In this document: positions 4,472 through 57,475 of the stretch, piece by piece
Layout of the letters: each line of letters starts with the position of its first letter
How positions within the stretch are numbered: the stretch's first letter is position 1
From: Candidatus Omnitrophota bacterium
GTDB taxonomy: Bacteria > Omnitrophota > Gorgyraeia > DTHP01
Direction: 5' to 3'
Length of the DNA stretch: 64,000 bases
Assembly (NCBI GenBank): GCA_023819145.1
Contig: JAMWCW010000007.1
Location: 16,876 to 80,875, forward strand
Notes under the pieces: model-generated
What the model saw: only the letters and a program-made list of their open reading frames with translations
Databases searched by the model: none
Told to the model about the DNA's origin: nothing
Position numbers and translations under genes: made by a program

Positions 4472-4474
4472 TTT

Positions 4475-5896: not shown

Positions 5897-5901
5897 ATAA
5901 A

Positions 5902-7428: not shown

Positions 7429-9112
7429 GTTTTAAATCTATAGATAAAGAATCAAGATATTTTAAGGCATCGGTGGCTATATTCCTAAAAACTGGTGCAC
7501 AGACTACTCCTCCATAATAGGGATATGGTTCGTCCAAGACCACGCCGATGACTAACTTAGGCTTTTCTAGAGGCACAAAACCTACAAAAGAAGAAACAAA
7601 TTTGCGATGTGAATAAGTCCCATTTTCTACTTTCTGGGCAGTACCTGTCTTACCTGCAGAAATATACCCTTCTACCCTCGCCATTTTACCTGTACCGTAT
7701 TCCACAACTCCTTTTAATACTTGAGCCATCGCTTCGGCAGTAGAAGAAGAAATTACATTTCTTACCTTTTGAGGATAATTAACAACTATGGAAATCCCCT
7801 TACTATCTCTTATTTCCTTTACAATGTAAGGCTTCATAAGAAAACCACCATTGGCAATGACACACATTGCCATCGTTAGCTGAAGAAGCGTAACCATTAC
7901 CTCCTGACCAATAGGAATTGCTCCGATAGAGGTTCTAGATAATTTACTTAAAGGCCTAATAAAACCCTCAGCTTCTCCAGGTAAACCTATGCCTGTTCTT
8001 TTTCCCATTCCAAATGTATAGATATAAGGATAAAGTCTATCTAAACCCATTTTCTGCGCTATCTTTACTGTACCGATATTACTGGAAAAACCAATGACTT
8101 CTTCAAAGGTCAACCAACCATGAGGCTGGTGGTCATGAAGTATATGAGTTTTTAAATTATACGAACCTTTTTCACAAAAAAATTTCTCTTTTAGGTTAGT
8201 CGCTTTCTCCTCTAAAGCTGCTGAGGCGGTAATTATTTTAAAAGAAGAACCGGGTTCAAACATATCAACAATTGCGCGATTGCGTAGTCTATCTTTATCA
8301 ACTACTTCTTGAGGATTATTAGGATTGAAATTTGGATAATTTGCCATAGCCAAAATTTCCCCTGTATAAGGAGAAACTACAACCACCGAACCACCCAATG
8401 CCCCTGTAGCCTTAACTGCTTTCTCCAATTCGCGCTCAGCCATGTGCTGGATTACAGAATCCAAGGTCAGAATTAAATTATAACCATCAACCGGAGGTAG
8501 ATAATCAAAGTCTAAGAAAAAAATTCTCCTTCGTTTAGCATCTTTATTAGAAAGTATATATCCTTTTCTACCCTTTAGTTGTTTATCATAATATAATTCT
8601 ATTCCCTCCAAACCATTGTTATCTATGTCGCAAAATCCCAAAACAGTAGAGCCGTTATTTATCTGGGGGTAATAACGTTTGTTTTCTTTAATTAAATATA
8701 CTCCTTTCAGAGAAAGTTTTTTTAAAGCCACTGTAGCCTCTTCGTTAATCCGACGGGCTATCCAAACAAAATGCTTGTTCTGAGATAATCTTTCTAAAAC
8801 TATTCCTTTATCCAGTTCAAGAACATGCGAAAGTGCCTCTACAGTGGAATGGGGGTCGTCTATTTCTTTCGGATTGGCAAAGACTGAATCCACGGAAAGA
8901 TTAAAAGCAAGAGGTTTTACATTACGATCAAATATAGTACCTCTCTTAGGTTCGAGAGGAATACGCATTTCATACTGGCTCTGGGCAAACTTTGCAAGAA
9001 ATGGTCCACGGAATAACTGGAGATAAATTAAACGGAGAGATAAAAATAATAAACTAACAAGAATAAAAGAATATAATATATATACATACTTTTTCCTACG
9101 CTGCTCTATCAC
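7406..9112 (-). CDS. ftsI: penicillin-binding protein 2/3 family transpeptidase (FtsI-like)
   Basis: 568 aa. N-terminal TM anchor, PBP dimerisation and transpeptidase regions. Located between ftsL and murE. Confidence 0.88.
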   Translation of the reverse strand: MIEQRRKKYVYILYSFILVSLLFLSLRLIYLQLFRGPFLAKFAQSQYEMRIPLEPKRGTIFDRNVKPLAFNLSVDSVFANPKEIDDPHSTVEALSHVLELDKGIVLERLSQNKHFVWIARRINEEATVALKKLSLKGVYLIKENKRYYPQINNGSTVLGFCDIDNNGLEGIELYYDKQLKGRKGYILSNKDAKRRRIFFLDFDYLPPVDGYNLILTLDSVIQHMAERELEKAVKATGALGGSVVVVSPYTGEILAMANYPNFNPNNPQEVVDKDRLRNRAIVDMFEPGSSFKIITASAALEEKATNLKEKFFCEKGSYNLKTHILHDHQPHGWLTFEEVIGFSSNIGTVKIAQKMGLDRLYPYIYTFGMGKRTGIGLPGEAEGFIRPLSKLSRTSIGAIPIGQEVMVTLLQLTMAMCVIANGGFLMKPYIVKEIRDSKGISIVVNYPQKVRNVISSSTAEAMAQVLKGVVEYGTGKMARVEGYISAGKTGTAQKVENGTYSHRKFVSSFVGFVPLEKPKLVIGVVLDEPYPYYGGVVCAPVFRNIATDALKYLDSLSIDLKLAEDIPD

Positions 9113-11077: not shown

Positions 11078-12016
11078 CTACTGGGAGGAATGCTGAGAGA
11101 AGAAAGAACGGGCAAACGATTCGTCTTCTTTCATAGCTAAAACAAGAGAAGAAATTTTATCAAATTGTCTCTCTGCTCTTACTCTTTTTATAAACTCAAC
11201 TTCTAAGAATTTACCATAAAGATTATTCTTAAAATCAAGTAAATATACTTCTACACTAAGTTCACTAACTTTGGAAAAAGTTGGCCGGTGTCCTATATAA
11301 AGAAGACCAGGATAAATATCTTTTTTAAAATAAACTTTTACTAAATAAACGCCAGAGGGAGGAAGTGCCTCGTGTTTTATATCCAAATTTGCAGTAGGAA
11401 AACCCAATCTCTTTCCCCTTCCCTCCCCTTTCACAACTTTTCCATAGATAGAGAAAGGACGGCCTAAAAGACGAGAAACTAAATCGAGATTGCCCAAATT
11501 TAATTCTTTTCTTATCCAACTGCTACTAATTATTCTTTTCCTATATTTAACCGGCCGAACCACAGTCAGGCGAAAATGGAATTCTTTACTTAATCTTTTG
11601 AGTAATCTAATACCTCCTTCTTGTCCATATCCAAAACGAAAATTATTCCCTACATATAATATCTTAATCCCTAATCCAGCACATAAAATATTTTTTACAA
11701 AAAGATGAGGAAAAAGAAGAGAAAAATTCCTATCAAAAGGAATGACTAAACAATAATTTATCCCTAAATTTCTCATCATTAAGAGGCGGTGTTCTAAAGA
11801 AATTAAAAGAGGAAGAGCAGTATTTTTTTTCGTTATCCTTGAGGGATGGGGATGGAAAGTAATTGCTAAAGAAGGAACTTTCTTTATCTTAGCTTCATTT
11901 ATAACTTTATAAAAAACTGCTAAATGTCCGCGATGTATTCCATCAAATATTCCAATAGTAGCAACGGTTCCTTTTGGTATTTTATCTAAATTGTTTAGAG
12001 CTCGAATAACTTTCAC
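11078..12016 (-). CDS. ribF: bifunctional riboflavin kinase / FMN adenylyltransferase RibF
   Basis: 312 aa. N-terminal nucleotidyltransferase motif GIFDGIHRGHL and a C-terminal riboflavin kinase domain. Confidence 0.9.
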   Translation of the reverse strand: MKVIRALNNLDKIPKGTVATIGIFDGIHRGHLAVFYKVINEAKIKKVPSLAITFHPHPSRITKKNTALPLLISLEHRLLMMRNLGINYCLVIPFDRNFSLLFPHLFVKNILCAGLGIKILYVGNNFRFGYGQEGGIRLLKRLSKEFHFRLTVVRPVKYRKRIISSSWIRKELNLGNLDLVSRLLGRPFSIYGKVVKGEGRGKRLGFPTANLDIKHEALPPSGVYLVKVYFKKDIYPGLLYIGHRPTFSKVSELSVEVYLLDFKNNLYGKFLEVEFIKRVRAERQFDKISSLVLAMKEDESFARSFFSQHSSQ

Positions 12017-12710
12017 TTGTTATACTCTCTAAAGGAATAAAAATTTTAGCTAACGAATCAATCTGTCTAAGGACATCGATACTAACTGCGTTAGCTAAGG
12101 AAAAATTACCACAACGCACGCGTCTAAGAGAATAGAGATAAAGAGGCAAGTTTAAACGCCTCATAATTTCTTCACAAAGACTTCTGATATAGGTTCCCTT
12201 TGAGCAGGAAATATGAAAATCAACAAAAGGAGGAGAAAAATTCACTAGTTTTAAAAAATAGATCTTTGCCAAACGCGGTTTACGGAACACAAGCTTACCT
12301 TCTCTTGCCAATTCATAGAGCCGTTTTCCTCTATAGTGCAAGGCAGAAAACATAGGGGGGGTTAAAGAAATATCACCGGTAAGCGAATGAAAGACCCTCT
12401 CTATATCCTCTACATCCAAATTAGTAACTTTATCTTCGTCTTTTTCTTCAAAAATTATCCTTCCATCTCCATCTCCGGTATCGGTAAACTTTCCAAGATA
12501 GAAACTTCCTTTATATTCCTTATCCATCTCTACAATATACGTAAATAATTTAGTAGCTTTACCCAACAAAACCACTAATACTCCGGTAGCCTCCGGATCG
12601 AGGGTTCCTCCATGTCCTACTTTCTTGAGTTTAAATCTCTTCCGAATAAAATCCACCACATCGTGAGAAGTAAATCCTTTGGGTTTATCTACAATAAGCA
12701 CCCCATTCAT
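11982..12710 (-). CDS. truB: tRNA pseudouridine(55) synthase TruB
   Basis: 242 aa starting GVLIVDKPKGFTSHDVV (TruB catalytic Asp motif). Classic truB-ribF adjacency. Confidence 0.9.
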   Translation of the reverse strand: MNGVLIVDKPKGFTSHDVVDFIRKRFKLKKVGHGGTLDPEATGVLVVLLGKATKLFTYIVEMDKEYKGSFYLGKFTDTGDGDGRIIFEEKDEDKVTNLDVEDIERVFHSLTGDISLTPPMFSALHYRGKRLYELAREGKLVFRKPRLAKIYFLKLVNFSPPFVDFHISCSKGTYIRSLCEEIMRRLNLPLYLYSLRRVRCGNFSLANAVSIDVLRQIDSLAKIFIPLESITSESYSSSKQFR

Positions 12711-15592: not shown

Positions 15593-16480
15593 TCAAGGCC
15601 TGGGATGAAACATTTTGTGTATCGACTTGAGCCTTTCTTTATTTACATGAGTATAAATCTGAGTAGTAGAGATATTTGCATGGCCTAACATCTCTTGAAC
15701 CACCCTCAAATCTGCACCGCGTTCTAAAAGATGTGTTGCGAAAGAATGTCTTAGAGTATGTGGACCAACCTTCTTCTTAATTCCTGCCCGTAGAACATAT
15801 TTTTTAATCATTTTCCATATGCTCTGCCGAGAAATCTTCTTACCCAGGTGAGATAAAAAGAGAAACGGCTCACTATTTTTCTTAATCATCTTTGGCCTTA
15901 TCTCTAACAGATAATTTCTTAAATACCTTATTGCAGTCTTTCCCACAGGAACAATTCTTTCTTTCTCACCTTTACCTTTACAACGCACAAAACCTCCTTC
16001 TAGATTAATATCGCTAATCCTCAAATCGGCTACTTCAGAAACCCGCATTCCTGTGGCATAGAGAAGTTCAAGACATGTTTTATCTCTGAAACCTATAGGA
16101 GTATTTGTGCGAACAGAGTTTAGAACTTTTTCTACCTCAGCAACAGAAAGACTTTCCGGAAGCCTTTTCCACAACCGCGGCGTCTCTAAAACCGCAGTAG
16201 GGTCATCTCTTATAATTCCCTCTTGGGCAAGAAATCTAAAAAACATTTTTAACGCTACTAACTCCCGCGCTATCGAAGAAGGATTTATTCCTTTTTCTCT
16301 TCTCTTAAATAAGAAATTGTCTATATCTCTGCGAGAAACCTTATCCCAAGAAATGATGCCTCCATCAGAAAGATATTTTTTAAATATTTTAAGATCTCTT
16401 CTATAAGAAGCTATTGTGTTATCTGCTAAACTTCTTTCCACATTGAGATAATTCAAAAACTGTTCAATCCATTCTTCCAT
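15593..16480 (-). CDS. xerD: site-specific tyrosine recombinase XerD/XerC
   Basis: 295 aa. C-terminal HTLRHSFATHLLERGADLRVVQEMLGHANISTTQIYTHV (R-H-R-Y catalytic box). Confidence 0.85.
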   Translation of the reverse strand: MEEWIEQFLNYLNVERSLADNTIASYRRDLKIFKKYLSDGGIISWDKVSRRDIDNFLFKRREKGINPSSIARELVALKMFFRFLAQEGIIRDDPTAVLETPRLWKRLPESLSVAEVEKVLNSVRTNTPIGFRDKTCLELLYATGMRVSEVADLRISDINLEGGFVRCKGKGEKERIVPVGKTAIRYLRNYLLEIRPKMIKKNSEPFLFLSHLGKKISRQSIWKMIKKYVLRAGIKKKVGPHTLRHSFATHLLERGADLRVVQEMLGHANISTTQIYTHVNKERLKSIHKMFHPRP

Positions 16481-17082: not shown

Positions 17083-20305
<3,223 letters not shown>

Positions 20306-20620: not shown

Positions 20621-20977
20621 AATTTCTTATTTATCACCCCCTTAGAAAGCTATTTTTATTATAACTAAATTGAATTTCCGGTCAACTTAAAAGTATTAAA
20701 ATTATATAGATAAGATAAATAAAAAGGAGGTAAATGGTGACTCATTAAGAATATTTATAAAATAAAAAATAACTCCGTAAAAGTATATATTCAACCTTCT
20801 CCTAACTCTGTAACTTTAAGATTCCTATAATTACCAAAAAAATCGGCAATTCGTAAACCCTAGATTTGCCAGTGTGGATAATAAAACCGCACCTCAATTT
20901 TTACAATATTCTTTTAGCCTTACAAGAGATGCAAAATTTTCGGCGATTTTTCCAACATGGATTTCTGTGGTGGCAGA

Positions 20978-22735
20978 TCAATTCCCTAAAAGCGCTTTTT
21001 CTACTTTGGGATATAATTTATCAATTCCTTTTTGCAATTCTATAGTATGTGATAATGCAGCAATAACTTTAAGAAAATGGGCAATATCATCATCGCTTAA
21101 AACTCTATCTTCTCTTTCTTTGAGCCATTTATCCAAGACCTGATAGCCGCCAATATAATAATTCCAGACCTCTTTAGCGACGCCAGAAAAATATTGCTTA
21201 TCGTTAATATATATCCTTTCTTCTTTTTCTTTGTATTCTCTCTTTTCAACTTTGCAGCCGTCTTTCGCTGGAAATTTTGCGATTGATTTATCCAATTTCT
21301 TGGACTTGAGCAAATGCAATTCTACTAACTCTTTGCCCAGGCCTGCCATTTCCTTAAAAACTTCAACATCTTTGGTAAAAGGAATGCGCGGAAAATCTGT
21401 CTTTAAAAATTCCGCATATTTTGCGCGGTAAGTGTTTGCGTAAAGAATAGCGTAAATATAATAGAAGATTTCTTCTGGCTTTGGCTCCTTTTTAAAAGCG
21501 TCGCATAAAATTTTTAATAATTCTTTGCTAAGGTTCGGGCTCTTTATTTCACCGGCAATAGCAAATAAATCCTTTTTGTCGCTATCAGGATAAAGATAAA
21601 GAGGGAATAAATAACCACTTCCATATTTTCCAGCTGTACCGGTAGAATTAAGGTCGGCAATCTGATCTGTAACTAAAGCGTGTCTAAACCCGCCCTGCGC
21701 TTGCCTGGAAGTTAACAATCCTAAATTCTCTTGCATCATATGCCGCATCACTTCTTTTCTTGAGCGCTCAATTACCGCGTCATGATAGAACAAATAACGG
21801 ATATCAAAGGGACGGTAGAGGCATTTAACTATATTTTTATCCAGATCCTCAATCCTTCTAATTTCTTCCCGCGCTTTTGCGATTTTCCATCTGGGGTTTT
21901 CCTTTATATTGTAGGTAGCTTTTAGCAAATCATCGCTTAAGCCCTTTCCTCTTAATGCCTCTATGCGTTGACGTAAGTTTCGCTTTTCGAAATCAAATAC
22001 CAAATTATCCCGGGAGGTAACAATCCCCACGCTGTTTACTGCAAAAATGTCGGTTATTTTCCAGAAAGACAGGTATTGCTTTTCCTGCTTTTCGCTGCGC
22101 GGCACAAAGAAATACATCTCAGGTTTTGGCGCTAAGGTCCTCCATTTTGTTGATGCCGCATCGTTATCTTCCAGCCACTGGTATTTCTTCTCTCTTACTC
22201 CCCACAAATCCGCATAATAAACCTTATTGCCCCTGGCGCCTGATTCTTTGATAAAGATGGCGATTGCCACTCCCTGCTGTATATCAAAAACATTCTCGTC
22301 TTTTGAGCCGTCAGGGCATTTTTCTTTCTTCAAGCTGTTGCCATGTAAATCCAGGATATAAATCTCATTAAAGGTCTTTATTAATGACTGCCGCATTCCT
22401 CTAAAGGTAGGGTTATCTAAATAACTGTGGTTGGTAATAAAAGCCAGAATCCCCTGCCCTGCTTTTTCAATTTTCCACTGCCCAAAGCGGATAAATTTAA
22501 CATAATCATCTTGCAGCCATTTAGGATTTCTTTCCCTTAAGGGTTTGCCGTCTACTTTCTTATAATCCTCAATTAAATTGGTAATCCAATCTCCGATATT
22601 TTTGGAGTGTCCCGAATAAGGAGGATTTCCCATAATTACTAAAATCGGTACCTCGCCTTTTATTTTTTTTGCCTCAATTGCCTCCTCAGATAATGCGGCA
22701 ACATAAGGCTCAACTGCCTGAGTTATTTCGCGCAA
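20978..22735 (-). CDS. MmeI-like Type IIL restriction-modification enzyme, C-terminal fragment (N6-adenine MTase motif IV NPPY plus target-recognition domain). Frame continues upstream to 22792.
   Basis: MGNPPYSGHS (motif IV). C-terminal YIGGYQVLDKWLKEREDRVLSDDDIAHFLKVIAALSHTIELQKGIDKLY, typical of the MmeI/YeeA-family TRD end. The ORF-track start is a TTG. The same frame is open upstream to a stop at 22793-95. Confidence 0.75.
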   Translation of the reverse strand: MREITQAVEPYVAALSEEAIEAKKIKGEVPILVIMGNPPYSGHSKNIGDWITNLIEDYKKVDGKPLRERNPKWLQDDYVKFIRFGQWKIEKAGQGILAFITNHSYLDNPTFRGMRQSLIKTFNEIYILDLHGNSLKKEKCPDGSKDENVFDIQQGVAIAIFIKESGARGNKVYYADLWGVREKKYQWLEDNDAASTKWRTLAPKPEMYFFVPRSEKQEKQYLSFWKITDIFAVNSVGIVTSRDNLVFDFEKRNLRQRIEALRGKGLSDDLLKATYNIKENPRWKIAKAREEIRRIEDLDKNIVKCLYRPFDIRYLFYHDAVIERSRKEVMRHMMQENLGLLTSRQAQGGFRHALVTDQIADLNSTGTAGKYGSGYLFPLYLYPDSDKKDLFAIAGEIKSPNLSKELLKILCDAFKKEPKPEEIFYYIYAILYANTYRAKYAEFLKTDFPRIPFTKDVEVFKEMAGLGKELVELHLLKSKKLDKSIAKFPAKDGCKVEKREYKEKEERIYINDKQYFSGVAKEVWNYYIGGYQVLDKWLKEREDRVLSDDDIAHFLKVIAALSHTIELQKGIDKLYPKVEKALLGN

Positions 22736-22769
22736 ATCGAGGGTATTGGTTAGATAAAGTGAAAAACGG

Positions 22770-24059
22770 TCATCTTTTTTGAAATTTATAACCTAAATCT
22801 TCTAGAAGCAACGATATTTTAAGATGTCCTATAATATAGGGCGCCATTAACAACTCAAAGGCATAGAAATTTTTCAAGACATGATTTTTAATTATTTGCT
22901 GCCAAGCTCCCGCCATTTTTCCCTTAAAAACCTCTTCCTTAACCAATAAAATCGCCTGAGCTAAAAAGGTGAGTGTTCCTGCAGCGGGGTCTAAAAGCGT
23001 AACAGTTTTATCCGCAAAACCGTCTCTCTTGTTAAATTTTTTCTTTAGTAGTATATTTATTGACCGTGTAATATAAGAAACAACTGGAAGCGGGGTATAA
23101 TATACACCTCTTGCTTCTCTTTTTTGGGGGTCATACTCAGCTAAAAATGTTTCGTAGAAATGCATTAAGGGGTCACCGCCTTTTTGGCGATGTAAATCCT
23201 GTCTAATTTTTTCTATATCGCAGTGGGCTAAAATCGTGGCGATATCATCCAAAATCCAGGTTATGGATTCAGGTAAAGCTGAACTTGAAATAAGAGAAAA
23301 AGTATCATGAAAAATATGGATATTTTTGGGGATATATTCGGAAGCTATAAAACGGCTAAAGTCTTTGCCTTGATATTGAAGCCGTGCAGTAAATAATCCA
23401 TAAGTTATAGTCTGAGCATAAATATCCGCAAAATCCTCTTTTGATAAATCCGGAATCAAATATTTCCTAAAGGCTTCATAAATCCTGTCTATCTCAGTAA
23501 TTTCTTGGTTGTTTAGCTCTTCAATAATATAAGAAGGCAAGAGCTGGGCCTTCTGAGCTAATTCTTCTGCTAAAGACTTCGCTGACTTTAATTCAGGGAT
23601 GTTGTATGAAAAGAAGGTATCAAGGAGCTTAAAGAAATCTTCCCCGTTGTCTGGCGGTGGCGCTGTTTTTAATTTTTTAAGAATTGACGGTTGACCAATC
23701 CTAACTTCTTTTACGACCTTACCACTCCTAAAAAGATGAAGATCTAAAAAGTTAGTTAAAATAAAATTTGGCAATCGAGCCCTGTAGCGCTCAATCTGTT
23801 CTGTATCATAAACATCGGTTAAATTGGTTAAGGTTAAATCTTTGGCTTCTATATAACCAATTAGTTCTTTGCCATTTCGTATTGTAAAATCGGGTTTTCC
23901 TGCCTTTGTTCTTCTTGCTTCAATTGTAATAGAAGGTTTTTTATTCTTAAAATTTAGATAGTTTTCTAATAATTTCTTTAAAGCAGAATAATAACTGGCT
24001 TCTGTGGCATCACCAGCTTTAAAAGTTTTTGTAATGTCTTCGAGATATTCTTTAAGCAT
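22770..24059 (-). CDS. MmeI-like Type IIL restriction-modification enzyme, N-terminal fragment (PD-ExK endonuclease domain plus MTase motifs X and I)
   Basis: GKPDFTIRNGKELIGYIEAKDL (PD...EAK nuclease motif, as in the MmeI N-terminus). RGVYYTPLPVVSYI (motif X). LLDPAAGTLTFL (motif I). Ends at TGA 22770-72 directly after an A6 tract. Confidence 0.75.
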   Translation of the reverse strand: MLKEYLEDITKTFKAGDATEASYYSALKKLLENYLNFKNKKPSITIEARRTKAGKPDFTIRNGKELIGYIEAKDLTLTNLTDVYDTEQIERYRARLPNFILTNFLDLHLFRSGKVVKEVRIGQPSILKKLKTAPPPDNGEDFFKLLDTFFSYNIPELKSAKSLAEELAQKAQLLPSYIIEELNNQEITEIDRIYEAFRKYLIPDLSKEDFADIYAQTITYGLFTARLQYQGKDFSRFIASEYIPKNIHIFHDTFSLISSSALPESITWILDDIATILAHCDIEKIRQDLHRQKGGDPLMHFYETFLAEYDPQKREARGVYYTPLPVVSYITRSINILLKKKFNKRDGFADKTVTLLDPAAGTLTFLAQAILLVKEEVFKGKMAGAWQQIIKNHVLKNFYAFELLMAPYIIGHLKISLLLEDLGYKFQKR

Positions 24060-24282
24060 TGTTTTTACTTATTATTCTTAATATTAATTATATAATAAAT
24101 ATATATTTAATTCCAAAATAAATCTTCGCCTAAAATAAAATTGGCAAGAAGTTAATGGCAAGTAAACACCGCAGGGACAATTGATATCTACAATGTCAGT
24201 GACTAAGCAATAAATTATATTTTAGTAGTTGTTTTTTCAAGATAAGTCAAAGTAGCGTTTAATAAGGATAATTGCTCATAGG

Positions 24283-24361
24283 TGGTCGGGGAGGACGGAC
24301 TTGAACCGTCGACCTCAGCGTCCCGAACGCTGCGCTCTAAACCAAACTGAGCCACTCCCCG
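24283..24361 (-). tRNA. tRNA-Pro (anticodon CGG)
   Basis: rc is CGGGGAGTGGCTCAGTTTGGTTTAGAGCGCAGCGTTCGGGACGCTGAGGTCGACGGTTCAAGTCCGTCCTCCCCGACCA. It folds as a 79-nt cloverleaf with a 7-bp acceptor stem, anticodon loop TTCGGGA, T-loop TTCAAGT and an encoded CCA. Confidence 0.9.
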
Positions 24362-24369
24362 GATTTGGG

Positions 24370-25107
24370 TTAGATAGTCAAAAGGTCTTTTAACCTTATG
24401 GCATTTTTTACGGCATAGCCGCAAGCATCATTATTAAAATAGGCATAAAGATCAATACCTTTTTCTATCCAGATTTTAGCCTTATCTACCCAAAATTTCA
24501 ACTCTTTTTCGGTATATTCTGAACCGTAAAGCGTTTTTCCTCCGTGAAAGCGTAGATATATAAAGTCACTGGTAACAATCTCAACCATCGGCCAAAATGG
24601 TGAATGGGCAATACATAAAGAAAAATTGTAATTCCTTAAAAGAGTATATACTTCCTCATTGAACCATGAGGAATGGCGAAATTCAAAAGCATAACGGATT
24701 TTATATCCCGAAATATCTTTACAAAATTTTTCTAATCTTTTAATATCTAATTTCATGTCCGGAGGAAATTGCCATAAAACTATTCCCAATTTTTCTTTCA
24801 GTTCTTTAAGTAGATTAAACAATTTTAGAAGATCATCATTAATACCATTGAGTTTCTTTACATGGGTAATATATCTTGAACCTTTAACAACGAATACGAA
24901 ATCCTTGGGAGTTTTCTTATACCAATTTTCAAATGTGCTTCTCCGCGGAAGACGATAGAAAGTAACATTTAATTCTACAGTGTTAAAGAATTTAGAGTAA
25001 TATTCTAACCATTTATTCTCTCGGAGCCCTTCAGGATAAAACAAACCATCTCCCCAGTGAGCATAGCTATAACCACTTGTTCCAATAAAAACCCTTCCCT
25101 TTTTCAC
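24370..25107 (-). CDS. DUF72 (YecE-like) family protein
   Basis: 245 aa. N-terminal IGTSGYSYAHW...FYP motif characteristic of DUF72. Confidence 0.75.
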   Translation of the reverse strand: MKKGRVFIGTSGYSYAHWGDGLFYPEGLRENKWLEYYSKFFNTVELNVTFYRLPRRSTFENWYKKTPKDFVFVVKGSRYITHVKKLNGINDDLLKLFNLLKELKEKLGIVLWQFPPDMKLDIKRLEKFCKDISGYKIRYAFEFRHSSWFNEEVYTLLRNYNFSLCIAHSPFWPMVEIVTSDFIYLRFHGGKTLYGSEYTEKELKFWVDKAKIWIEKGIDLYAYFNNDACGYAVKNAIRLKDLLTI

Positions 25108-25117: not shown

Positions 25118-25756
25118 TTATAAAAAACCGTGCTCTCTAAGAAATCCTTCGCTTAAGTGTTCACCTTTTTTTTTCGTAAGAATTTTATTCACATATTTTG
25201 CAAAAATATCTATTTCAATATTCAAATAATCACCAATATTTTTAAAACCAAGTGTAGTATTCTCTGCGGTGTGAGGAATAATATTTACTGAAAAATAACT
25301 GTTTTCTATTTCTACTATCGTCAAACTTACTCCATCTAAAGAAATTGAACCTTTAGGAACAAGATAATCTAATATCTCTTTATTTGTATCCACAAATAAA
25401 GATATTCCACTTTCTTCTTTAATCTTCTTTAAAATTTTACCCATTCCATCTACGTGTCCTAAAACGATATGCCCACTTAAAAAAGAATCGAGCTTTAATG
25501 CCCTCTCTAAATTAACCTTTTCTTTTACTTTAAGCATTCCTAAGTTTGTACGCTTTAAAGTCTCTCCGATACAATCAAAAATTAATTTATCTTTTTTTGT
25601 CTCCACAATTGTTAAGCATACGCCATTTACTGAAACACTATCTCCAACTTTTAATGTGGTAATAATTTTCTCAGCCTTTATCTCTAATTTAAAAAAACTA
25701 TCCTTTTTCAAAATTTTATCCACTGAACCCAATTCCTCAATTATTCCTGTAAACAT
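25118..25756 (-). CDS. ribE: riboflavin synthase (alpha subunit)
   Basis: 212 aa. MFTGIIEELGSV N-terminus and internal duplication typical of riboflavin synthase. Confidence 0.9.
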   Translation of the reverse strand: MFTGIIEELGSVDKILKKDSFFKLEIKAEKIITTLKVGDSVSVNGVCLTIVETKKDKLIFDCIGETLKRTNLGMLKVKEKVNLERALKLDSFLSGHIVLGHVDGMGKILKKIKEESGISLFVDTNKEILDYLVPKGSISLDGVSLTIVEIENSYFSVNIIPHTAENTTLGFKNIGDYLNIEIDIFAKYVNKILTKKKGEHLSEGFLREHGFL

Positions 25757-25765
25757 ATTTAACTC

Positions 25766-26860
25766 CTATTTTTTTATATAACCAGAAATTAAAAAATCAT
25801 CTCCTATCCTTTTTATCGCTGTATTTTTCAATAAAATTGCCTTATTCAATTTCTCAACACCTTCTCCTTCCACAGAAGTAATTGCCTCTCGACCTCCGAT
25901 TATTTTTGGACTAATAAAGAAATAAATTTTATCTACAAGTTTTCCCTCTAAAAAAGAAGCGATGGTTTCTCCCCCTCCTTCTACTAAAACATGGGCTATT
26001 TCTTTTTCAAACAATTTTCTCGCTAAAGTCTTTAAATCAACTCTGCCATCTTTATCATTAACTACTATAACTTCTGCCCTGTTTTTAAATTCTTGCATTC
26101 TTCTCTTAGGAGCATACTTTGTGGTAGCAATAATTAATTTCCCAATAGATTTTTCAGAAAGGACTCTTGCCTTAAGCGGCATCCTCAATCTTGAATCCAA
26201 AATAATCTTATAGTAAACCTTTGAATTTAGAGTTTTGAATGCAGGGTTTAAGAGAGGGTTATCTTTAATTATTGTATTTACCCCTACTACTACCGCATCT
26301 ACTTCGTTACGTAATTCCTTTGCAAATGTACGTGCCTTTTCCGAAGTAATCCATTTAGATTCTCCGGTCTTGGTAGTAATCTTTCCATCAAGACTCTGAG
26401 CAACTTTTACAATTATAAAAGGGATTCTTTGAGTAATGTATTTTACGAAAACCTCATTAATTTTCCTTGCCTCATCTTCTAAAATTCCTACCTCCACCTC
26501 AATCCCTTTTTCTCTTAATTCTTTTATTCCTTTCCCGTTATTTAGAGGATTAGGATCAACCATCGCCGTATAAACTTTTTTTATCCCTGCAGAAATTATT
26601 GCTTTGGTGCACGGAGGAGTTCTGCCATAATGACAACAAGGTTCAAGATTTACATATAAAACTGCCCCTTTTGCTCTCCCTCCCGCCTCTCTTAACGCTT
26701 CTATTTCTGCGTGAGGAAACCCTGCTCTTTTATGAAATCCTTTACCTAATATTCTTCCTTCTTTTACAATAACACAACCTACTAGCGGATTAGGGCTGGT
26801 AAGTCCTTTTGATTTCAGAGCCAGTTTAAAAGCAGTACGCATATAATCTTCGTGGTTCAT
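25766..26860 (-). CDS. ribD: bifunctional diaminohydroxyphosphoribosylaminopyrimidine deaminase / 5-amino-6-(5-phosphoribosylamino)uracil reductase RibD
   Basis: 364 aa. Deaminase zinc motif HAEIEAL...PCCHYGRTPPC. C-terminal reductase domain. Confidence 0.92.
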   Translation of the reverse strand: MNHEDYMRTAFKLALKSKGLTSPNPLVGCVIVKEGRILGKGFHKRAGFPHAEIEALREAGGRAKGAVLYVNLEPCCHYGRTPPCTKAIISAGIKKVYTAMVDPNPLNNGKGIKELREKGIEVEVGILEDEARKINEVFVKYITQRIPFIIVKVAQSLDGKITTKTGESKWITSEKARTFAKELRNEVDAVVVGVNTIIKDNPLLNPAFKTLNSKVYYKIILDSRLRMPLKARVLSEKSIGKLIIATTKYAPKRRMQEFKNRAEVIVVNDKDGRVDLKTLARKLFEKEIAHVLVEGGGETIASFLEGKLVDKIYFFISPKIIGGREAITSVEGEGVEKLNKAILLKNTAIKRIGDDFLISGYIKK

Positions 26861-30345: not shown

Positions 30346-30406
30346 ATTTTATCAAAAACAGGTTTGTTTGTCAAGCCTTGACAGAAATAAAAATTTTTGC
30401 TATATT
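30346..30406. promoter_or_regulatory. divergent sigma70-type promoters sharing a palindromic -35 region (TGTCAAGCCTTGACA)
   Basis: Minus strand: TTGACA (rc of 30369-74), 17 nt, then TAAAAT (rc of 30346-51), driving the riboswitch and rib operon. Plus strand: TTGACA (30378-83), 17 nt, then TATATT (30401-06), driving the GGDEF gene. Confidence 0.55.
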
Positions 30407-30429
30407 TATATAACTTTATTTGTCCCCTT

Positions 30430-31629
30430 ATGGAAAAAGAGATTCAAGAAAATATTGAGCTGTTTAAGAAAGAGCTGGATAAAGCAAAAACGGAACTATC
30501 TATCCTCTATGAGATAGGCAACGCTATGCATTCCACACTCAACCTTGATGAAATTCTCTATATAATACTTACTGCAGCAACTGCCCATACTGGACTCGGT
30601 TTTAACCGCGCAATGCTTTTTATGGTCAATGAAAAAGAAAATTTGCTTGAAGGACGTATGGGCATAGGACCGCAGTCAGGTGAAGAGGCATATCACATTT
30701 GGAAAAAGATTGAAACAGAAAAAATGGACCTTAATGATTTCATTGAAGCATATAAAGAGTTTTCTGTCCAGAAGGATTCTCCTTTGAACAATCTCGTAAA
30801 AACCATAAAAATTCCTTTAAGAGAAGATGGAGGAATCCTTGCTGTGACAGTAATAAAAGGCTCTCCTTCCCTTATAAATACTCCTGAAGCGAGGGCAAAA
30901 ATAAACGATGTTGCACTCTCCTTGTTAAAAGTTGACCAATTTGTGGTGGTGCCGCTTAAGGCAAAAGATAAGGCAATAGGGGTAATTCTGGCAGACAATT
31001 TTATAACGCGAAAACCCATTAACCAGGATGATTTGCGTCTTCTAAGTATGTTTGCTAACCAGGCAGGTTTAGCAATTGAAAACTCACGTTTATATGAACA
31101 GACTCTCATCCTCTCTAATACCGACTATCTTACACATCTCTGGAATCATGGTTATTTTCAGCAGTTGATGAATGAAGAAATAAAGAAATCTTCTGCAAAC
31201 AAAACATCAATAAGTCTTATTATGCTCGATATAGATGATTTCAAAAACTACAATGATACACTTGGTCATCAAGCGGGAGACAAAGTCCTTCAAGAAATAG
31301 GAGATATAATCCGGCAAAATGTACGTAGAAATGACTGGGCATGTAGATACGGAGGTGAGGAATTTGCTATAATTTTACCCCAAATAAGTAAAGAAGATAC
31401 ACTCAAATTTGCGGAGAGATTGAGGAATCAAATTGAATTACATAAATTCCCTCATGAAGAAGTACAACCGAAACAGAAAATCACCGTAAGTATAGGTATA
31501 GCTACCTTTCCTGCAGATGCTTCTAACAAAGATGAATTGATTTACAAAGCAGATATGGCTATGCTCGAGGCTAAGAAAAAAGGGAGGAATCGTACTTGTC
31601 TATATTTTCCTCAGTCAATGTCTCAGTAA
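30430..31629 (+). CDS. GAF domain-containing diguanylate cyclase (GGDEF)
   Basis: Active-site RYGGEEF with an I-site-like RRND five residues upstream. N-terminal GAF-like region. The ORF track starts at 30397, but the predicted -10 (30401-06) lies inside that extension, so ATG 30430 (MEKEIQ…) is the more likely start. Confidence 0.8.
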   Translation: MEKEIQENIELFKKELDKAKTELSILYEIGNAMHSTLNLDEILYIILTAATAHTGLGFNRAMLFMVNEKENLLEGRMGIGPQSGEEAYHIWKKIETEKMDLNDFIEAYKEFSVQKDSPLNNLVKTIKIPLREDGGILAVTVIKGSPSLINTPEARAKINDVALSLLKVDQFVVVPLKAKDKAIGVILADNFITRKPINQDDLRLLSMFANQAGLAIENSRLYEQTLILSNTDYLTHLWNHGYFQQLMNEEIKKSSANKTSISLIMLDIDDFKNYNDTLGHQAGDKVLQEIGDIIRQNVRRNDWACRYGGEEFAIILPQISKEDTLKFAERLRNQIELHKFPHEEVQPKQKITVSIGIATFPADASNKDELIYKADMAMLEAKKKGRNRTCLYFPQSMSQ

Positions 31630-31642: not shown

Positions 31643-34600
31643 TTAATTTTTCCTTGCCTCGACTTTAGTATTTTCAGAAACATCAGAAAATTTTACAGAA
31701 ACAAGTTTAGAAACCCCTGATTCTTCCATCGTCACTCCATACATAACGTCAGCAACCGCTATTGTTTTTTTATTGTGCGTAATAACAATAAATTGTGACG
31801 TTTTAGAAAATTCCTTCATCAACATACGGAAACGGTCAATATTAGACTCATCCAGGGGCGCATCTACTTCATCAAGGATACAAAAAGGACTGGGTTTTAC
31901 TTTAAAAATAGCAAAAAGCAAGGCTACAGCAGTCAAGGCCTTCTCTCCTCCAGAAAGGAGATTTATATTCTGCAACTTTTTACCTGGTGGCTGAGCAATA
32001 ATTTCTATCCCTGACTCTAAAACATTCTCAGGTTCCAAAAGGAACAACTGAGAATTTCCTCCACCGAAAAGAAGACGGAAAATCTCTTTGAAGTTTACCC
32101 CTATCTTCTGAAACGTATCAATAAACATTTCCTTCGCCGTATGATTAATACGATTAATTGCCTCGTGCAAGGATTCCTTAGCTTTCAGCAAATCTGACTG
32201 TTGGTTAAGAAGAAAACTGTGTCTTTCCTGAAGTTGTCCAAACTCTTCGATGGCAATAAGATTAACTGGGCCAAGTGATAAAAGCTTATCTTGTAATGAA
32301 CTTATTTCTTCTTTCAAAATATGTTCATCAAAATCTTCCGCTGTAAAATCTACCTTTGCTGTCTCTAAATTAATTTTATAATTACTTTCTATTTTCTGGA
32401 GAATATCTCTCTTATCAAAATCTATACCTTGCATTTTTATCTCCAACTCATGAATTCCATTTTTTATCTTATCCAAGCTCTTCTGCATTGTTCCCAAGCT
32501 ATCTTCTTCTTCTTCTATCTCATTCTTAAAATAATTTTTCTTTGCATTTAAATCATCTAATTTCTTTACACTATTTTCAATCTCTTTATTAAAAACACCT
32601 TTCTCCTTCTCAAGAGAGGAAATCTCTTCATTCAAGAGTTTAATTTTTTCAAGATTAATATTTCTTTCCTCTAATCTTGTTAAAAACATTCTCTCTGTTT
32701 CAGCAACAGAGTTTTCCAAGGAATAAATCCTCTCGTTAAGAAGCGTTGCCTTCTCACTGTACGAATTTAAACTCGATTCAAGCTCTGTAATCTCCAATAA
32801 AGTCTTTTCCCTTAAAGCATTTCTATCTTCAAGATTACGCGTCGTTTCTTCTAAGAGCCGTTGTATTTCTGACTCTCTCAACTCTAAATCCTTTAGTCTA
32901 TTTTCACTCTCCTTTATCTTGCCATCGCGCGAATTGACCTCCTCACGCGATTCTTCAATTTCTAAATCTACAATTCCTAATTCGTCCTTTACTCTTCCTA
33001 AATCTTTTCCTATCCTTTCAACCTCTTGGTTTAGATTGCTCAACTCAATCTCAATTAAGTGTTTCTCCTCTTCTTTGTTGACCAACTCCTCTTTGGTCTG
33101 ATTCAACGTTAGGGATAAACTTTCTTTATCCTGGGAAAGTTTATCCTTTTCTTTACCCAAACTAACTAATTCCAATTTTAAATCCTCAATCTTTCTACGA
33201 CGCCCAATGATAGAGGTATCCTCGTCTATAGAAACATAAGCGGTTTTGATAAAATTGTCTCTCATAACATCCCCTTGGCAAGTAACTAAGCATAAAGATA
33301 AATCTCCTCTTTCTCTCTTAAGCCCAATTCCTTCCTCCAAATTATTCACTAAAACGGTATTTGAAAACAAATAAGAGAGTACAATTTCATAAGGAACGAG
33401 GCGGACAAAGTTAATTAAATAACTAAACTTGCCTTCGATATTTAATGAAGAAACAACATTTTTTTCTATGTCCTCAAGAACAAGAAAGTTCACTCCACCT
33501 AAGTTGTGTTCTCTTATATAATCTAAACAGAGTGACAAACTTCTGTAGTCTTTAATTAAGATTGCCTGAGCATTCTCACCCAGAACGGCTTCCACCGCTT
33601 TCTCATAACCCTTATCCACTTCAAGCATTTCTGCCAAAGGTCCAATTATCGCTGCTTCTCCTAATGCACCATTTTTATATGCTAAAATCAAGGATTTTAC
33701 TCCCGGAGAATACCCTTCATAATGTGCTTCCATCTCTTTCATCAAATCGATGCGTGAAGCGAGTGTATTATATTCCACCTCTTTCTTCTGAAGTTCTCCA
33801 GTTAAATCATCCAGGTCCTTATTTAATTTCCCTATCCGATTATCTAATTCCTCTATATCTTTAACTTTATTATATAGAACTAATTTCTTATCCTCTAAAA
33901 TTTGGCAACGTTGGGTATATAAACTATCAAGTTTACCTTTCTCTTCATCAGCCTTAGCTTTTTCTAATTCCAAACGGCGGAGGCGTGCTTGAAAAGACGA
34001 AATCTCTGTCTTTAGCTTCGTCAGCTCATTTCTTACTCTTGCCATTCCCTGATTAACATCCATAAGTTGAAGTCGGTAATTACTAATCAAAGATTCTCCT
34101 TCTTTTATCTGTTGATTTAGTGAATTCAATAAATCCTGTTTGTTTTTGAGCAGATTTTTCTTTTCCTCTTCATCCTTACAAAAATCATCAAATTGAACTT
34201 TCAGTTCTGTGAGCATTCTCCTCTCGTTGTCTCTTTTTTCCTCTAATCTCTTATTTTCCTCGACAAGGACGATATTTCTTTCCTCTAACTCTTTAATGCG
34301 TTCACTATCAAGCATAATCTTTGATTGGTTCTTTTCTAACGAAGCTTCAAGGTAAGCCTTTCTGCTCTCCTCTGAAGAAATCTCTTTTTCTAAAGATTCG
34401 AGCTTTTCTCGTCTTTCTTTCAACCGCTCTTCTCCGGAAGATAAATCTCTTAAGATTTTTTCTTCTTCTTTTTGTAAAGCTTCTTTTTCTTTAAGCAGTG
34501 CTTCCTTCTTACCCTCCAATTGAAGCATAAGGGATTTACTATATTTTAATTCTTTGTCTTTTAATATATTAAAAATCTCCTGATACCGTTCCGCTTTTCT

Positions 34601-35227
34601 TGCCTGACGTTCAAGTGAAGAAAGTTGCCTGCTTACTTCACTGATTATATCGTTAACCCTTATTAAATTATTTTCTGTATCTTCCAATTTTCTCAAAGCC
34701 TCTTTTTTTTGAGATTTAAATTTGGTGATTCCTGCTGCTTCCTCAAATATGAAACGTCGATCCTCCCCTCGTGAACTCAAAACCAAGTCAATCTTACCCT
34801 GTTCAAGCAGAGAATAGGAACTTGTTCCTATACCTGTACCAAAGAATAATTCCTGGATATCTTTAAGACGAACGGGAACTTTATTGAGTAAATATTCTGA
34901 TTCTCCGGAACGAAAAAGCCGCCGAGTAACGGTAATCTCTGCATATTCTATAGGGAAAATTTTATCCTCATTGGAAAGGGTTAAAGAAACCTCGGCAAAA
35001 TTAACTGGCTCCTTGATGCTAGTCCCATTAAAGATAACATCTTCCATCCTGGAACCACGTAATTCCCGAGGATTCTGTTCTCCTAAGACCCACTTTATTG
35101 CATCCGAAATATTGCTTTTTCCACAACCATTAGGACCAACAATGGCGGTAATCCCCGGTTCGAATTTCAATACTGTCTTTTCAGCAAACGACTTAAAACC
35201 ATATAATTCTATGGATTTGAAATACAT
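31643..35227 (-). CDS. smc: chromosome segregation protein SMC
   Basis: 1194 aa. Walker A (GPNGCGKSN) at the N-terminus. Long coiled coils and a hinge. C-terminal signature LSGGEKALTAVALLFA and Walker B ILDEVDAPLD. Confidence 0.93.
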   Translation of the reverse strand: MYFKSIELYGFKSFAEKTVLKFEPGITAIVGPNGCGKSNISDAIKWVLGEQNPRELRGSRMEDVIFNGTSIKEPVNFAEVSLTLSNEDKIFPIEYAEITVTRRLFRSGESEYLLNKVPVRLKDIQELFFGTGIGTSSYSLLEQGKIDLVLSSRGEDRRFIFEEAAGITKFKSQKKEALRKLEDTENNLIRVNDIISEVSRQLSSLERQARKAERYQEIFNILKDKELKYSKSLMLQLEGKKEALLKEKEALQKEEEKILRDLSSGEERLKERREKLESLEKEISSEESRKAYLEASLEKNQSKIMLDSERIKELEERNIVLVEENKRLEEKRDNERRMLTELKVQFDDFCKDEEEKKNLLKNKQDLLNSLNQQIKEGESLISNYRLQLMDVNQGMARVRNELTKLKTEISSFQARLRRLELEKAKADEEKGKLDSLYTQRCQILEDKKLVLYNKVKDIEELDNRIGKLNKDLDDLTGELQKKEVEYNTLASRIDLMKEMEAHYEGYSPGVKSLILAYKNGALGEAAIIGPLAEMLEVDKGYEKAVEAVLGENAQAILIKDYRSLSLCLDYIREHNLGGVNFLVLEDIEKNVVSSLNIEGKFSYLINFVRLVPYEIVLSYLFSNTVLVNNLEEGIGLKRERGDLSLCLVTCQGDVMRDNFIKTAYVSIDEDTSIIGRRRKIEDLKLELVSLGKEKDKLSQDKESLSLTLNQTKEELVNKEEEKHLIEIELSNLNQEVERIGKDLGRVKDELGIVDLEIEESREEVNSRDGKIKESENRLKDLELRESEIQRLLEETTRNLEDRNALREKTLLEITELESSLNSYSEKATLLNERIYSLENSVAETERMFLTRLEERNINLEKIKLLNEEISSLEKEKGVFNKEIENSVKKLDDLNAKKNYFKNEIEEEEDSLGTMQKSLDKIKNGIHELEIKMQGIDFDKRDILQKIESNYKINLETAKVDFTAEDFDEHILKEEISSLQDKLLSLGPVNLIAIEEFGQLQERHSFLLNQQSDLLKAKESLHEAINRINHTAKEMFIDTFQKIGVNFKEIFRLLFGGGNSQLFLLEPENVLESGIEIIAQPPGKKLQNINLLSGGEKALTAVALLFAIFKVKPSPFCILDEVDAPLDESNIDRFRMLMKEFSKTSQFIVITHNKKTIAVADVMYGVTMEESGVSKLVSVKFSDVSENTKVEARKN

Positions 35228-55120: not shown

Positions 55121-57475
<2,355 letters not shown>

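What the first reader, a model, noticed from the sequence alone, without database searches (positions are those of the whole stretch)
20978..24059. Single-chain MmeI-family Type IIL restriction-modification enzyme split by a +1 frameshift at an A6 tract
Two consecutive minus-strand ORFs of 429 and 585 aa together make one complete MmeI-like polypeptide. It has an N-terminal PD-ExK nuclease (GKPDF…IEAKDL), gamma-class N6-adenine MTase motifs X (GVYYTP), I (LLDPAAGTLTF) and IV (NPPY), and a C-terminal TRD (…GYQVLDKWLKERED…). The combined length of about 1014 aa matches the family. The reading frames differ by one base. The upstream frame stops (TGA 22770-72) immediately after AAAAAA (coding strand, plus 22775-80). 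Removing one A gives a seamless fusion. So this is a fresh pseudogene, a homopolymer sequencing/assembly error, or a slip-prone phase-variable switch of a solitary RM enzyme. The family modifies only one strand and needs no separate methylase. An intact version would therefore be a complete defence module on its own.
Basis: partly seen in the sequence, partly recalled or inferred. Interest (0 to 1): 0.6.

Follow-up and report, generated by a model that had tools for sequence, protein, structure and literature searches.

The report
Frameshifted DrdV-like restriction-modification gene
Two neighbouring reading frames are one common single-protein restriction-modification gene (DrdV-like, not MmeI-like) broken by one extra A in a short run of As, which is an ordinary inactivating lesion or assembly slip and not a special switch.

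Summary
Minus-strand ORFs 22770-24059 (429 aa) and 20978-22735 (585 aa) differ by one frame, and the upstream frame stops just after an A6 run (22775-22780). Deleting one A gives a stop-free 1026-aa protein. It aligns without a gap across the junction to intact 1020-1085-aa homologues. Six independent close relatives (79-85% identical) read CAAAAAGATGACCG (A5) where the window reads CAAAAAAGATGACCG (A6).

The family assignment is wrong in detail. The protein is a single-chain nuclease-methyltransferase-TRD enzyme with Type IIL architecture, but it belongs with DrdV and the Type ISP enzymes (Pfam Type_ISP_C 1.6e-89; DrdV fold match 8.7e-44). It is not in the MmeI family (MmeI_Mtase below threshold; MmeI fold match 3.3e-13).

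The break lies in a loop inside the methyltransferase fold, so the split state should be null for both methylation and restriction. Nothing else in the gene looks decayed: dN/dS is 0.06-0.10 and there are no other stops. The frameshift is not conserved, and the run is too short to suggest a dedicated phase-variation switch.

No other gene in the 64-kb window is broken, despite 182 in-ORF homopolymers of 6 nt or more. A real, recent mutation is therefore somewhat more likely than an assembly error, but only reads can settle it. The finding is ordinary and of low interest.

The parts
20978..24059 (-). Whole DrdV-like Type IIL RM gene. It gives 1026 aa once one A of the A6 run is removed.
   Evidence: fused ORF without stops. 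(100% colinear coverage by intact homologues). (DrdV 7lo5 aligned 6-984 to 13-978, E 3.5e-51). (PADLOC REase_MTase_IIG, 924 bits).
22770..24059 (-). Upstream half as it stands (429 aa). It holds the PD-ExK nuclease (about res 1-120), the helical connector (about 124-317) and the first part of the methyltransferase fold (GVYYTP 318-323; motif I LLDPAAGTLTF 355-365; strand 398-402 with invariant E402).
   Evidence: query E20, D57, E71, K73 align with DrdV E25, D64, E79, K81; these residues are invariant in 68 sequences; secondary structure. NCBI MCM8784072.1 'N-6 DNA methylase'.
22775..22780 (-). A6 run on the coding strand (T6 on +). This is the site of the one-base insertion relative to A5 in relatives.
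   Evidence: L001/L048, L003, L049, L050, L051 and L052 all read CAAAAAGATGACCG.
22770..22772 (-). Premature TGA reached in the shifted frame.
20978..22774 (-). Downstream half in the other frame. It holds residues DDRFSLYLTNTLD..., strand 434-436 (LYLTNT), motif IV NPPY (478-481), the rest of the methyltransferase, and the Type_ISP_C target-recognition domain (res 670-1008).
   Evidence: frame translation. (Type_ISP_C 1.6e-89; Eco57I; N6_Mtase). (LlaBIII 300-979). NCBI MCM8784071.1 is the 585-aa part from TTG 22735.
24087..24116 (-). Promoter-like site (TTGGAA-18-TATAAT) 28 nt upstream of the start codon. Weak evidence only.
   Evidence: The count of such sites in the region is no higher than in shuffles.
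24283..24361 (-). tRNA-Pro(CGG) 223 bp upstream of the RM gene. It is context (a possible insertion landmark), not part of the enzyme.

Best explanation
[quoted passage not shown] The family has an N-terminal PD-ExK nuclease, a helical connector, a gamma-class N6-adenine methyltransferase and a Type ISP-like C-terminal target-recognition domain, and no ATPase. In this Candidatus Omnitrophica MAG the gene carries a one-base insertion (A5 to A6) at codon 429/430.

Inferred by homology with DrdV, the intact enzyme would work as follows:
- It binds an asymmetric site through the TRD.
- It methylates one adenine on one strand, which protects the host.
- It cleaves at a fixed distance only when several enzyme-bound unmodified sites come together.

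As the sequence stands, translation stops two codons after the run. The break lies between the SAM-binding strands (motifs I-II) and the strands carrying motifs III-IV (NPPY), and upstream of the TRD. Methylation and targeted cleavage should therefore both be lost together.

The lesion is the only defect, so it is either a very recent genuine inactivation (most likely) or a consensus error. It is not a programmed frameshift and not a dedicated phase-variation device.
For: Shown:
- Colinear full-length homology to intact enzymes, with no gap at the junction.
- A5 in six independent relatives against A6 here.
- DrdV is the top full-length match by sequence (3.5e-51) and by fold (8.7e-44). LlaBIII and LlaGI match over the MTase+TRD only.
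- Type_ISP_C scores 1.6e-89.
- The DrdV catalytic residues D64/E79/K81/E25 align with query D57/E71/K73/E20, which are invariant in 68 family members.
- The junction maps to loop 422-433 between helix 406-421 and strand 434-436 of the Rossmann fold.
- No other stop occurs in 1026 codons.
- dN/dS against relatives is 0.06-0.10, the same as between intact relatives at 0.08.

For a real mutation rather than an error:
- The window is 94% coding, with 61 tightly packed ORFs.
- 182 homopolymers of 6 nt or more, 60 of 7 or more and 16 of 8 or more lie inside ORFs without any other frame break.
- All overlapping neighbour pairs are distinct complete genes.
- An A8 run 105 nt downstream in the same gene is in frame.
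- Lone frameshifts occur in other family members, for example L098 at C4 to C5.
- Three MmeI-type Type IIL genes were shown by resequencing to be truly disrupted in their hosts and became active after repair (PMC2731913).
Against: - No reads and no independent assembly of the same population could be found. A single consensus error at this run cannot be excluded.
- The enzymology (recognition site, one-strand methylation, cleavage distance) is inferred from about 22% identity to DrdV and was not measured.
- A low level of full-length protein could still arise from transcriptional slippage or a +1 ribosomal slip on CAA AAA AGA. 'Null' therefore means strongly reduced, not proven zero.
Confidence: 0.66

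Rival explanations
1. Assembly or consensus error, or within-population heterogeneity. The organism, or most cells, have A5 and an intact, active RM gene, and the extra A is an artefact of MAG assembly or polishing.
For: - The change is a single base in a homopolymer, the classic error type.
- The rest of the gene is flawless: no other stops, dN/dS 0.06-0.10, all invariant residues kept.
- The source is a metagenome-assembled genome.
Against: - None of about 60 other genes in the 64 kb is broken, although 182 homopolymers of 6 nt or more lie in ORFs, including 16 of 8 nt or more.
- A longer A8 run in the same gene is correct.
- RM genes are a class in which true single-lesion inactivation is documented (PMC2731913) and is seen in other members of this family.
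Confidence: 0.25
2. Phase-variable switch. The A run slips between A5 (ON) and A6 (OFF) at an appreciable rate, giving reversible on/off control of a lone RM enzyme.
For: - The lesion is in a homopolymer and can be reversed by one slip.
- Because the nuclease and methyltransferase share one polypeptide and one TRD, switching would be non-lethal (inference).
- Phase-variable Type IIG and Type III genes exist in other bacteria (own knowledge).
Against: - The run is only 5-6 nt. Known switches use much longer runs (own knowledge: typically 8-9 or more).
- The window holds 194 homopolymer runs of 6 nt or more, so this one is unremarkable.
- Relatives have A5 at ordinary CAA AAA (Gln-Lys) codons, or other sequences, with no sign of tract lengthening: across 63 loci the longest A run near the site is mostly 2-5.
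- The A8 run in the same gene would be the more slip-prone site, yet it is in frame.
Confidence: 0.05
3. Recoding. The full-length enzyme is made by a programmed +1 ribosomal frameshift (tRNA-Lys slipping from AAA to AAA on CAA AAA AGA before UGA) or by transcriptional slippage on the A run.
For: A +1 slip of tRNA-Lys on A AAA A re-pairs perfectly, and a stop codon lies two codons further on (sequence).
Against: - The frameshift is not conserved. All close relatives and thousands of family members encode one uninterrupted ORF.
- I saw no stimulatory Shine-Dalgarno-like element or stop-in-A-site arrangement like that of prfB in the sequence read; this was not searched for systematically.
- An A6 run is short for efficient transcriptional slippage (own knowledge).
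Confidence: 0.02
4. Functional split enzyme. The 429-aa and 585-aa products are both made and associate to restore activity.
For: NCBI annotates both halves as ordinary CDSs.
Against: - The break cuts the Rossmann fold between motifs II and III.
- The downstream ORF begins only at an internal TTG, 12 residues after the junction, and so loses strand 434-436.
- No two-gene arrangement exists among relatives.
Confidence: 0.02

Closest known systems
DrdV (Deinococcus; PDB 7LO5/7LVV), a single-chain Type IIL RM enzyme of 1029 aa
   Same: - The domain order and length are the same: N-terminal PD-ExK nuclease, helical connector, gamma N6-adenine MTase and C-terminal TRD, 1026 aa against 1029 aa.
- The alignment is colinear, 6-984 to 13-978, E 3.5e-51.
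- It is the top fold match, 8.7e-44.
- Catalytic residues D64/E79/K81/E25 are matched by D57/E71/K73/E20.
- There is no ATPase domain.
   Different: - Identity is only about 22%, so the recognition sequence (CATGNAC for DrdV) and cleavage offset cannot be transferred.
- The window copy is frameshifted.
- DrdV K94 has no clearly aligned basic residue in the alignment.
Type ISP enzymes LlaBIII and LlaGI (PDB 4XQK, 5FFJ)
   Same: The methyltransferase and the Type_ISP_C target-recognition domain are clearly homologous. LlaBIII scores 4.3e-54 over query 300-979, the profile search gives 7.9e-71 and Pfam Type_ISP_C gives 1.6e-89. Many homologues are even named 'type ISP restriction/modification enzyme' by NCBI.
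   Different: Type ISP enzymes are about 1400-1580 aa, with an Mrr nuclease plus an SF2 ATPase/translocase ahead of the MTase, and they cleave after collision. The window protein has no ATPase. Its first about 300 residues match DrdV and not the Type ISP enzymes.
MmeI family (Type IIL; PDB 5HR4) and BpuSI (Type IIG; 3S1S)
   Same: - The general architecture and logic are the same: a single chain with an N-terminal PD-ExK nuclease, a gamma MTase and a shared TRD.
- MmeI-family genes are also found naturally disrupted by single lesions and can be repaired (PMC2731913).
   Different: - There is no detectable sequence relationship beyond the MTase core. MmeI_Mtase scores 19 bits against a cutoff of 27, and no other MmeI domain matches.
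- MmeI is not found in PDB sequence searches at E<=10.
- The fold match is 3.3e-13 at 11% identity, no better than CamA or BrxX.
BREX methyltransferase PglX/BrxX
   Same: It is a large gamma-class N6-adenine MTase with a C-terminal TRD. The fold match is about 1e-12.
   Different: PADLOC gives no PglX hit. No BREX partner genes lie in the window; the neighbours are housekeeping genes. PglX has no PD-ExK nuclease domain (own knowledge).

Membership tests
DrdV-like single-chain Type IIL RM enzymes | Full-length colinear similarity to DrdV (nuclease, connector, MTase, TRD in one chain of about 1000 aa) | tested here: met
   7lo5_A aligned 13-978 to query 6-984, E 3.5e-51. Foldseek 8.7e-44, top hit, entry titled 'DrdV-DNA complex'.
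DrdV-like single-chain Type IIL RM enzymes | PD-ExK nuclease catalytic residues (DrdV D64, E79, K81, plus E25) | tested here: met
   They align with query D57, E71, K73 and E20. All are invariant in 68 homologues. D57 sits at the start of strand 58-62, and E71/K73 at the end of strand 65-72.
DrdV-like single-chain Type IIL RM enzymes | Gamma-class N6-adenine MTase motifs, including NPPY | tested here: met
   N478-P479-P480-Y481, D357/P358/G361 and E402 are invariant. Pfam N6_Mtase and Eco57I match above their cutoffs.
DrdV-like single-chain Type IIL RM enzymes | Type ISP-like C-terminal target-recognition domain | tested here: met
   Pfam PF18135 Type_ISP_C, 1.6e-89, residues 670-1008, profile positions 1-339 of 342.
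DrdV-like single-chain Type IIL RM enzymes | No ATPase/translocase domain | tested here: met
   No helicase or ATPase family appears in the Pfam scan at E<=0.1. The length of 1026 aa is fully accounted for by the DrdV alignment.
DrdV-like single-chain Type IIL RM enzymes | Methylates one strand only and cleaves at a fixed distance when several sites are bound | not testable with these tools
   Needs biochemistry or a methylome.
DrdV-like single-chain Type IIL RM enzymes | Intact reading frame, that is, a functional member | tested here: not met
   The A6 run and TGA at 22770-22772 split the ORF. It is a disrupted member as sequenced.
MmeI family (Morgan et al. 2009, PMC2731913) | Significant similarity to MmeI along its entire length (their criterion: E<1e-20, whole length) | tested here: not met
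   MmeI is not among PDB sequence hits at E<=1 or at E<=10 with the family profile. Only MmeI_Mtase matches, at 19 bits against a cutoff of 27, and no other MmeI domain model appears among the Pfam matches at E<=0.1. Foldseek gives 3.3e-13 at 11% identity.
MmeI family (Morgan et al. 2009, PMC2731913) | N-terminal PD-ExK motif | tested here: met
   The motif is present, but it is shared with many families and is not diagnostic.
Type ISP RM enzymes (LlaGI/LlaBIII) | SF2 ATPase/translocase domain between the nuclease and the MTase | tested here: not met
   LlaBIII and LlaGI align only from query residue about 300 onward, corresponding to LlaBIII residue 847 onward. Pfam finds no ATPase.
Phase-variable RM gene | Long simple-sequence tract in the ORF, with tract length varying between strains or reads | tested here: not met
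   The run is A5 in six relatives and A6 here, which is short. There are 194 homopolymer runs of 6 nt or more in the window. Read-level variation could not be examined.
Programmed frameshift gene | The frameshift site is conserved in homologues | tested here: not met
   All close and distant homologues listed are single uninterrupted ORFs.

The most novel reading that the evidence does not exclude
The A5/A6 run is a working, reversible on/off switch, or a low-efficiency +1 recoding site. It would let an Omnitrophota population keep a lone Type IIL RM enzyme silent in most cells and active in a few. That would extend phase-variable defence to very short homopolymers and to an uncultured phylum.
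Probability: 0.05. Interest if true: 0.4.

Novelty: new member of a known kind. Interest (0 to 1): 0.12.

Why it matters
It matters little beyond annotation.
- The two NCBI proteins MCM8784072.1 and MCM8784071.1 should be one disrupted RM gene, and it should be filed with DrdV/Type-ISP-like enzymes, not with MmeI.
- The one-base repair is unambiguous and the rest of the gene is pristine. The repaired ORF could therefore be synthesised to obtain a new Type IIL specificity, as was done for disrupted MmeI homologues (PMC2731913).
- It adds one more example of RM genes being silenced by single lesions.

Tried and rejected
- **Independent assemblies of the same population.** I tried to read the run length elsewhere. 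Exact look-ups of the 429-aa half, the 585-aa half and the flanking DUF72 protein found no contig. An exact DNA pattern allowing A5-A7 found nothing in metagenome contigs. Protein-guided scans of the GTDB species genomes and of JGI metagenomes found no relative above 85% identity.
- **Insertion scars.** I looked for a direct repeat of the tRNA-Pro 3' end flanking the gene and found only short chance-level repeats.
- **Remnants of partner genes.** Relatives carry a small HTH gene, an HTH-M78 peptidase and DUF4411 next to the RM gene. None has a remnant in the window.
- **NCBIfam.** It has no model for this protein.
- **Rfam.** It finds only the two tRNAs in the window.
- **Promoter and terminator scans.** They are at chance level.
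- **BREX/PglX, Type ISP and Type I readings.** I considered and rejected these.
- **A −1 frameshift on the A AAA AAG heptamer.** I rejected this because that heptamer is in phase with the downstream frame and not the upstream one, and a −1 shift would enter the wrong frame (from the sequence).
Full report
**Observation**

On the coding strand the upstream frame reads ...GGT TAT AAA TTT CAA AAA AGA TGA. The A6 run is at window 22780-22775 and the stop at 22772-22770. The downstream frame, offset by one base, reads ...AAA AAA GAT GAC CGT TTT TCA CTT TAT CTA ACC AAT ACC (K K D D R F S L Y L T N T).

Removing one A gives a single ORF with no internal stop. It is 1026 aa, not about 1014. The listed 585-aa ORF starts only at an internal TTG, and 12 further residues upstream of that TTG belong to the protein.

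**The two halves are one protein**

The best 120 listed, apart from the window's own 585-aa half, are single chains of about 1020-1085 aa covering 99-100% of the query. The closest are 85, 80, 79, 77, 77 and 74% identical.

In alignments of 15 and 68 sequences the junction is gap-free. The window reads LEDLGYKFQKDDRFSLYLTNTLD and P0001 reads LEDLGYKSQKDDRFPLYLTNTLD.

At the DNA level, six independent contigs carry close relatives (L001/L048, L003, L049, L050, L051, L052). All read CAAAAAGATGACCG, while the window reads CAAAAAAGATGACCG. The lesion is therefore a one-base insertion, A5 to A6, in ordinary Gln-Lys codons.

**Family**

Pfam results:
- Type_ISP_C at 1.6e-89 (residues 670-1008).
- N6_Mtase and Eco57I above their cutoffs.
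- MmeI_Mtase at only 19 bits against a cutoff of 27, and no other MmeI domain.

PADLOC calls it REase_MTase_IIG at 924 bits. NCBIfam has nothing.

Against solved structures by sequence:
- LlaBIII, 4.3e-54, query 300-979.
- 7lo5, 3.5e-51, query 6-984 to chain 13-978.
- LlaGI, 2.9e-48.

A family profile gives the same three hits (7.9e-71, 8.5e-69, 8.9e-63). Only marginal Type I M-subunit matches follow, and MmeI and BpuSI are absent even at E<=10.

An AlphaFold2 model of the repaired protein has mean pLDDT 83 and pTM 0.65. Searched against the PDB, it ranks as follows:

| Structure | Foldseek E-value |
|---|---|
| DrdV-DNA complex (7lo5) | 8.7e-44 |
| LlaBIII | 1.4e-39 |
| LlaGI | 5.2e-39 |
| MmeI (5hr4, 11% identity) | 3.3e-13 |
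| BpuSI | 9.0e-13 |
| BrxX/PglX and CamA | about 1e-12 |

The DrdV preprint (10.1101/2021.01.06.425610) describes DrdV as follows:
- It is a 1029-residue single-chain Type IIL enzyme with an N-terminal nuclease, a helical connector, a methyltransferase and a C-terminal TRD.
- It methylates one strand of CATGNAC and cuts 10/8 downstream.
- Its MTase and TRD are highly similar to those of Type ISP enzymes.
- Its nuclease active site is D64, E79, K81 and E25.

In the alignment these four residues face query D57, E71, K73 and E20, and all four are invariant across 68 family members. In the model, D57 opens strand 58-62, and E71/K73 close strand 65-72. This is the PD-ExK layout that Morgan et al. 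describe for Type IIL nucleases (PMC2731913).

The architecture and the Type IIL label are therefore right. 'MmeI family' is wrong. This is a DrdV-like enzyme whose MTase-TRD module is shared with Type ISP enzymes but which lacks their ATPase.

**What the frameshift does**

Residues 429/430 fall in loop 422-433, between helix 406-421 and strand 434-436.
- Upstream of the break lie GVYYTP, motif I (LLDPAAGTLTF, strand 355-357) and strand 398-402 with the invariant E402.
- Downstream lie LYLTNT (strand 434-436), NPPY (478-481, after strand 474-477) and the whole TRD.

The 429-aa product would therefore lack the catalytic NPPY motif and all sequence recognition. The downstream part would lack the SAM-binding half, and it has only an internal TTG as a possible start.

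I infer that methylation and targeted cleavage are lost together. Such a loss should be harmless to the host, because both activities sit in one chain and share one TRD.

**Real lesion, artefact or switch**

*Against decay.* There is no other stop in 1026 codons. Every family-invariant residue is kept. dN/dS against four relatives is 0.06-0.10, the same as between intact relatives at 0.08. If the lesion is real, it is recent.

*Against a programmed frameshift.* No homologue shares the break.

*Against a dedicated phase-variation tract.*
- The run is 5-6 nt.
- The 36% G+C window holds 194 homopolymer runs of 6 nt or more.
- Relatives show no lengthening at the site.
- An A8 run 105 nt downstream in the same gene (22663-22670) is in frame.

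*Against systematic homopolymer error.*
- The window is 94% coding, with 61 tightly packed ORFs averaging 329 aa.
- 182, 60 and 16 homopolymers of at least 6, 7 and 8 nt lie inside ORFs with no other frame break.
- Every pair of overlapping neighbours proved to be two complete, different genes: ftsW/murD, murE/ftsI, ribF/truB, a XerC-like recombinase/MBL hydrolase, purM/purF and tgt/TPR.

*For real single-lesion inactivation in this gene class.*
- Other family members carry lone frameshifts. L098 has C4 to C5 in the FPLYLY codons, and L118 and L122 are also shifted. One archaeal copy (L044) is multiply decayed.
- Morgan et al. confirmed by resequencing that three MmeI homologues are truly disrupted in their hosts, and they recovered active enzymes after minimal repair (PMC2731913).

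I could not obtain reads or any independent assembly of this population, so a one-off consensus error remains possible. My estimates are:
- about 0.66 for a real recent inactivation;
- 0.25 for an artefact or a minority variant;
- 0.05 for functional phase variation;
- about 0.02 each for recoding and for a functional split enzyme.

**Source and context**

The halves are already in NCBI as MCM8784072.1 ('N-6 DNA methylase', 429 aa) and MCM8784071.1 (hypothetical protein NC818_04790, 585 aa). Both sit on an 85,021-bp contig of a Candidatus Omnitrophica MAG and are annotated as two ordinary CDSs.

The gene stands alone in a housekeeping region, 223 bp downstream of tRNA-Pro(CGG) and upstream of an acylphosphatase gene. 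Its 5' half has a GC skew near 0, against -0.2 to -0.5 in the flanks, which hints at acquisition by transfer. No repeat scar was found.

The family is spread over many bacterial phyla and some archaea in MAGs.

**Verdict**

The family is misassigned, and the more exciting 'switch' reading is poorly supported. This is a disrupted new member of a very common, structurally characterised kind of enzyme.

Noticed in passing
window 24283-24361 (-) and 20621-24282: tRNA-Pro(CGG) lies 223 bp upstream of the RM gene. The RM gene is a lone non-housekeeping gene between this tRNA and an acylphosphatase gene. GC skew over 22700-24200 is about 0, against -0.2 to -0.5 in the flanks. This suggests a single-gene insertion next to a tRNA, but no flanking direct repeat was found.
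   Followed up: partly
L003 163-369; L049 4057-4269; L001 3160-4816; L049 7340-8515: The closest intact relatives carry partner genes. A 68-70-aa HTH ORF abuts or overlaps the RM start and may be a controller protein. A 391-aa HTH_3 + Peptidase_M78 (ImmA/IrrE-like) ORF plus DUF4411 lies directly downstream. The window copy has none of these and no remnants of them.
   Followed up: partly
window 21570-21710 (about residues 785-830 of the repaired protein); alignment A1 columns about 835-890: One TRD segment (QAQGGFRHALVTDQIADLNSTGTAGKYGSGY) is shared by the window, P0001, P0002 and P0004. It is replaced by unrelated sequence in P0003, P0005 and P0006, which are otherwise 74-79% identical. This looks like mosaic exchange of specificity loops.
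   Followed up: no
window 22663-22670: An A8 run (T8 on the + strand) inside the same gene, coding EAKKIKG, is in frame, although it should be more slip-prone than the A5/A6 site.
   Followed up: yes
L098 about 5190; L118 about 900; L122 about 1445; L044 10001-11655; L105 1776-3419: Other family members in metagenomes and MAGs are also disrupted. L098 has a C4 to C5 insertion in the FPLYLY codons. L118 and L122 each have a single frameshift, and the L122 one lies near the same region of the MTase. A Methanosarcinales copy (L044) has several frameshifts. L105 has an insertion of about 1.6 kb.
   Followed up: partly
window 24215-24424 (-): The 69-aa ORF listed here overlaps the tRNA-Pro gene and is almost certainly spurious.
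   Followed up: yes
window 20978-24059: NCBI annotates the two halves as separate ordinary proteins (MCM8784072.1 'N-6 DNA methylase', MCM8784071.1 'hypothetical protein') and not as one disrupted gene.
   Followed up: yes
window 995-9112, 11078-12710, 15593-16480, 17563-19572, 25118-26860, 31643-35227, 40463-42884, 55121-56311: The surroundings are core housekeeping genes, all on the minus strand: ftsW, murD, murE, ftsI, ribF, truB, a XerC/D-like tyrosine recombinase, ligA, riboflavin synthase/ribD, SMC, purM, purF and tgt. The lone plus-strand gene is a GAF-GGDEF protein at 30397-31629.
   Followed up: partly
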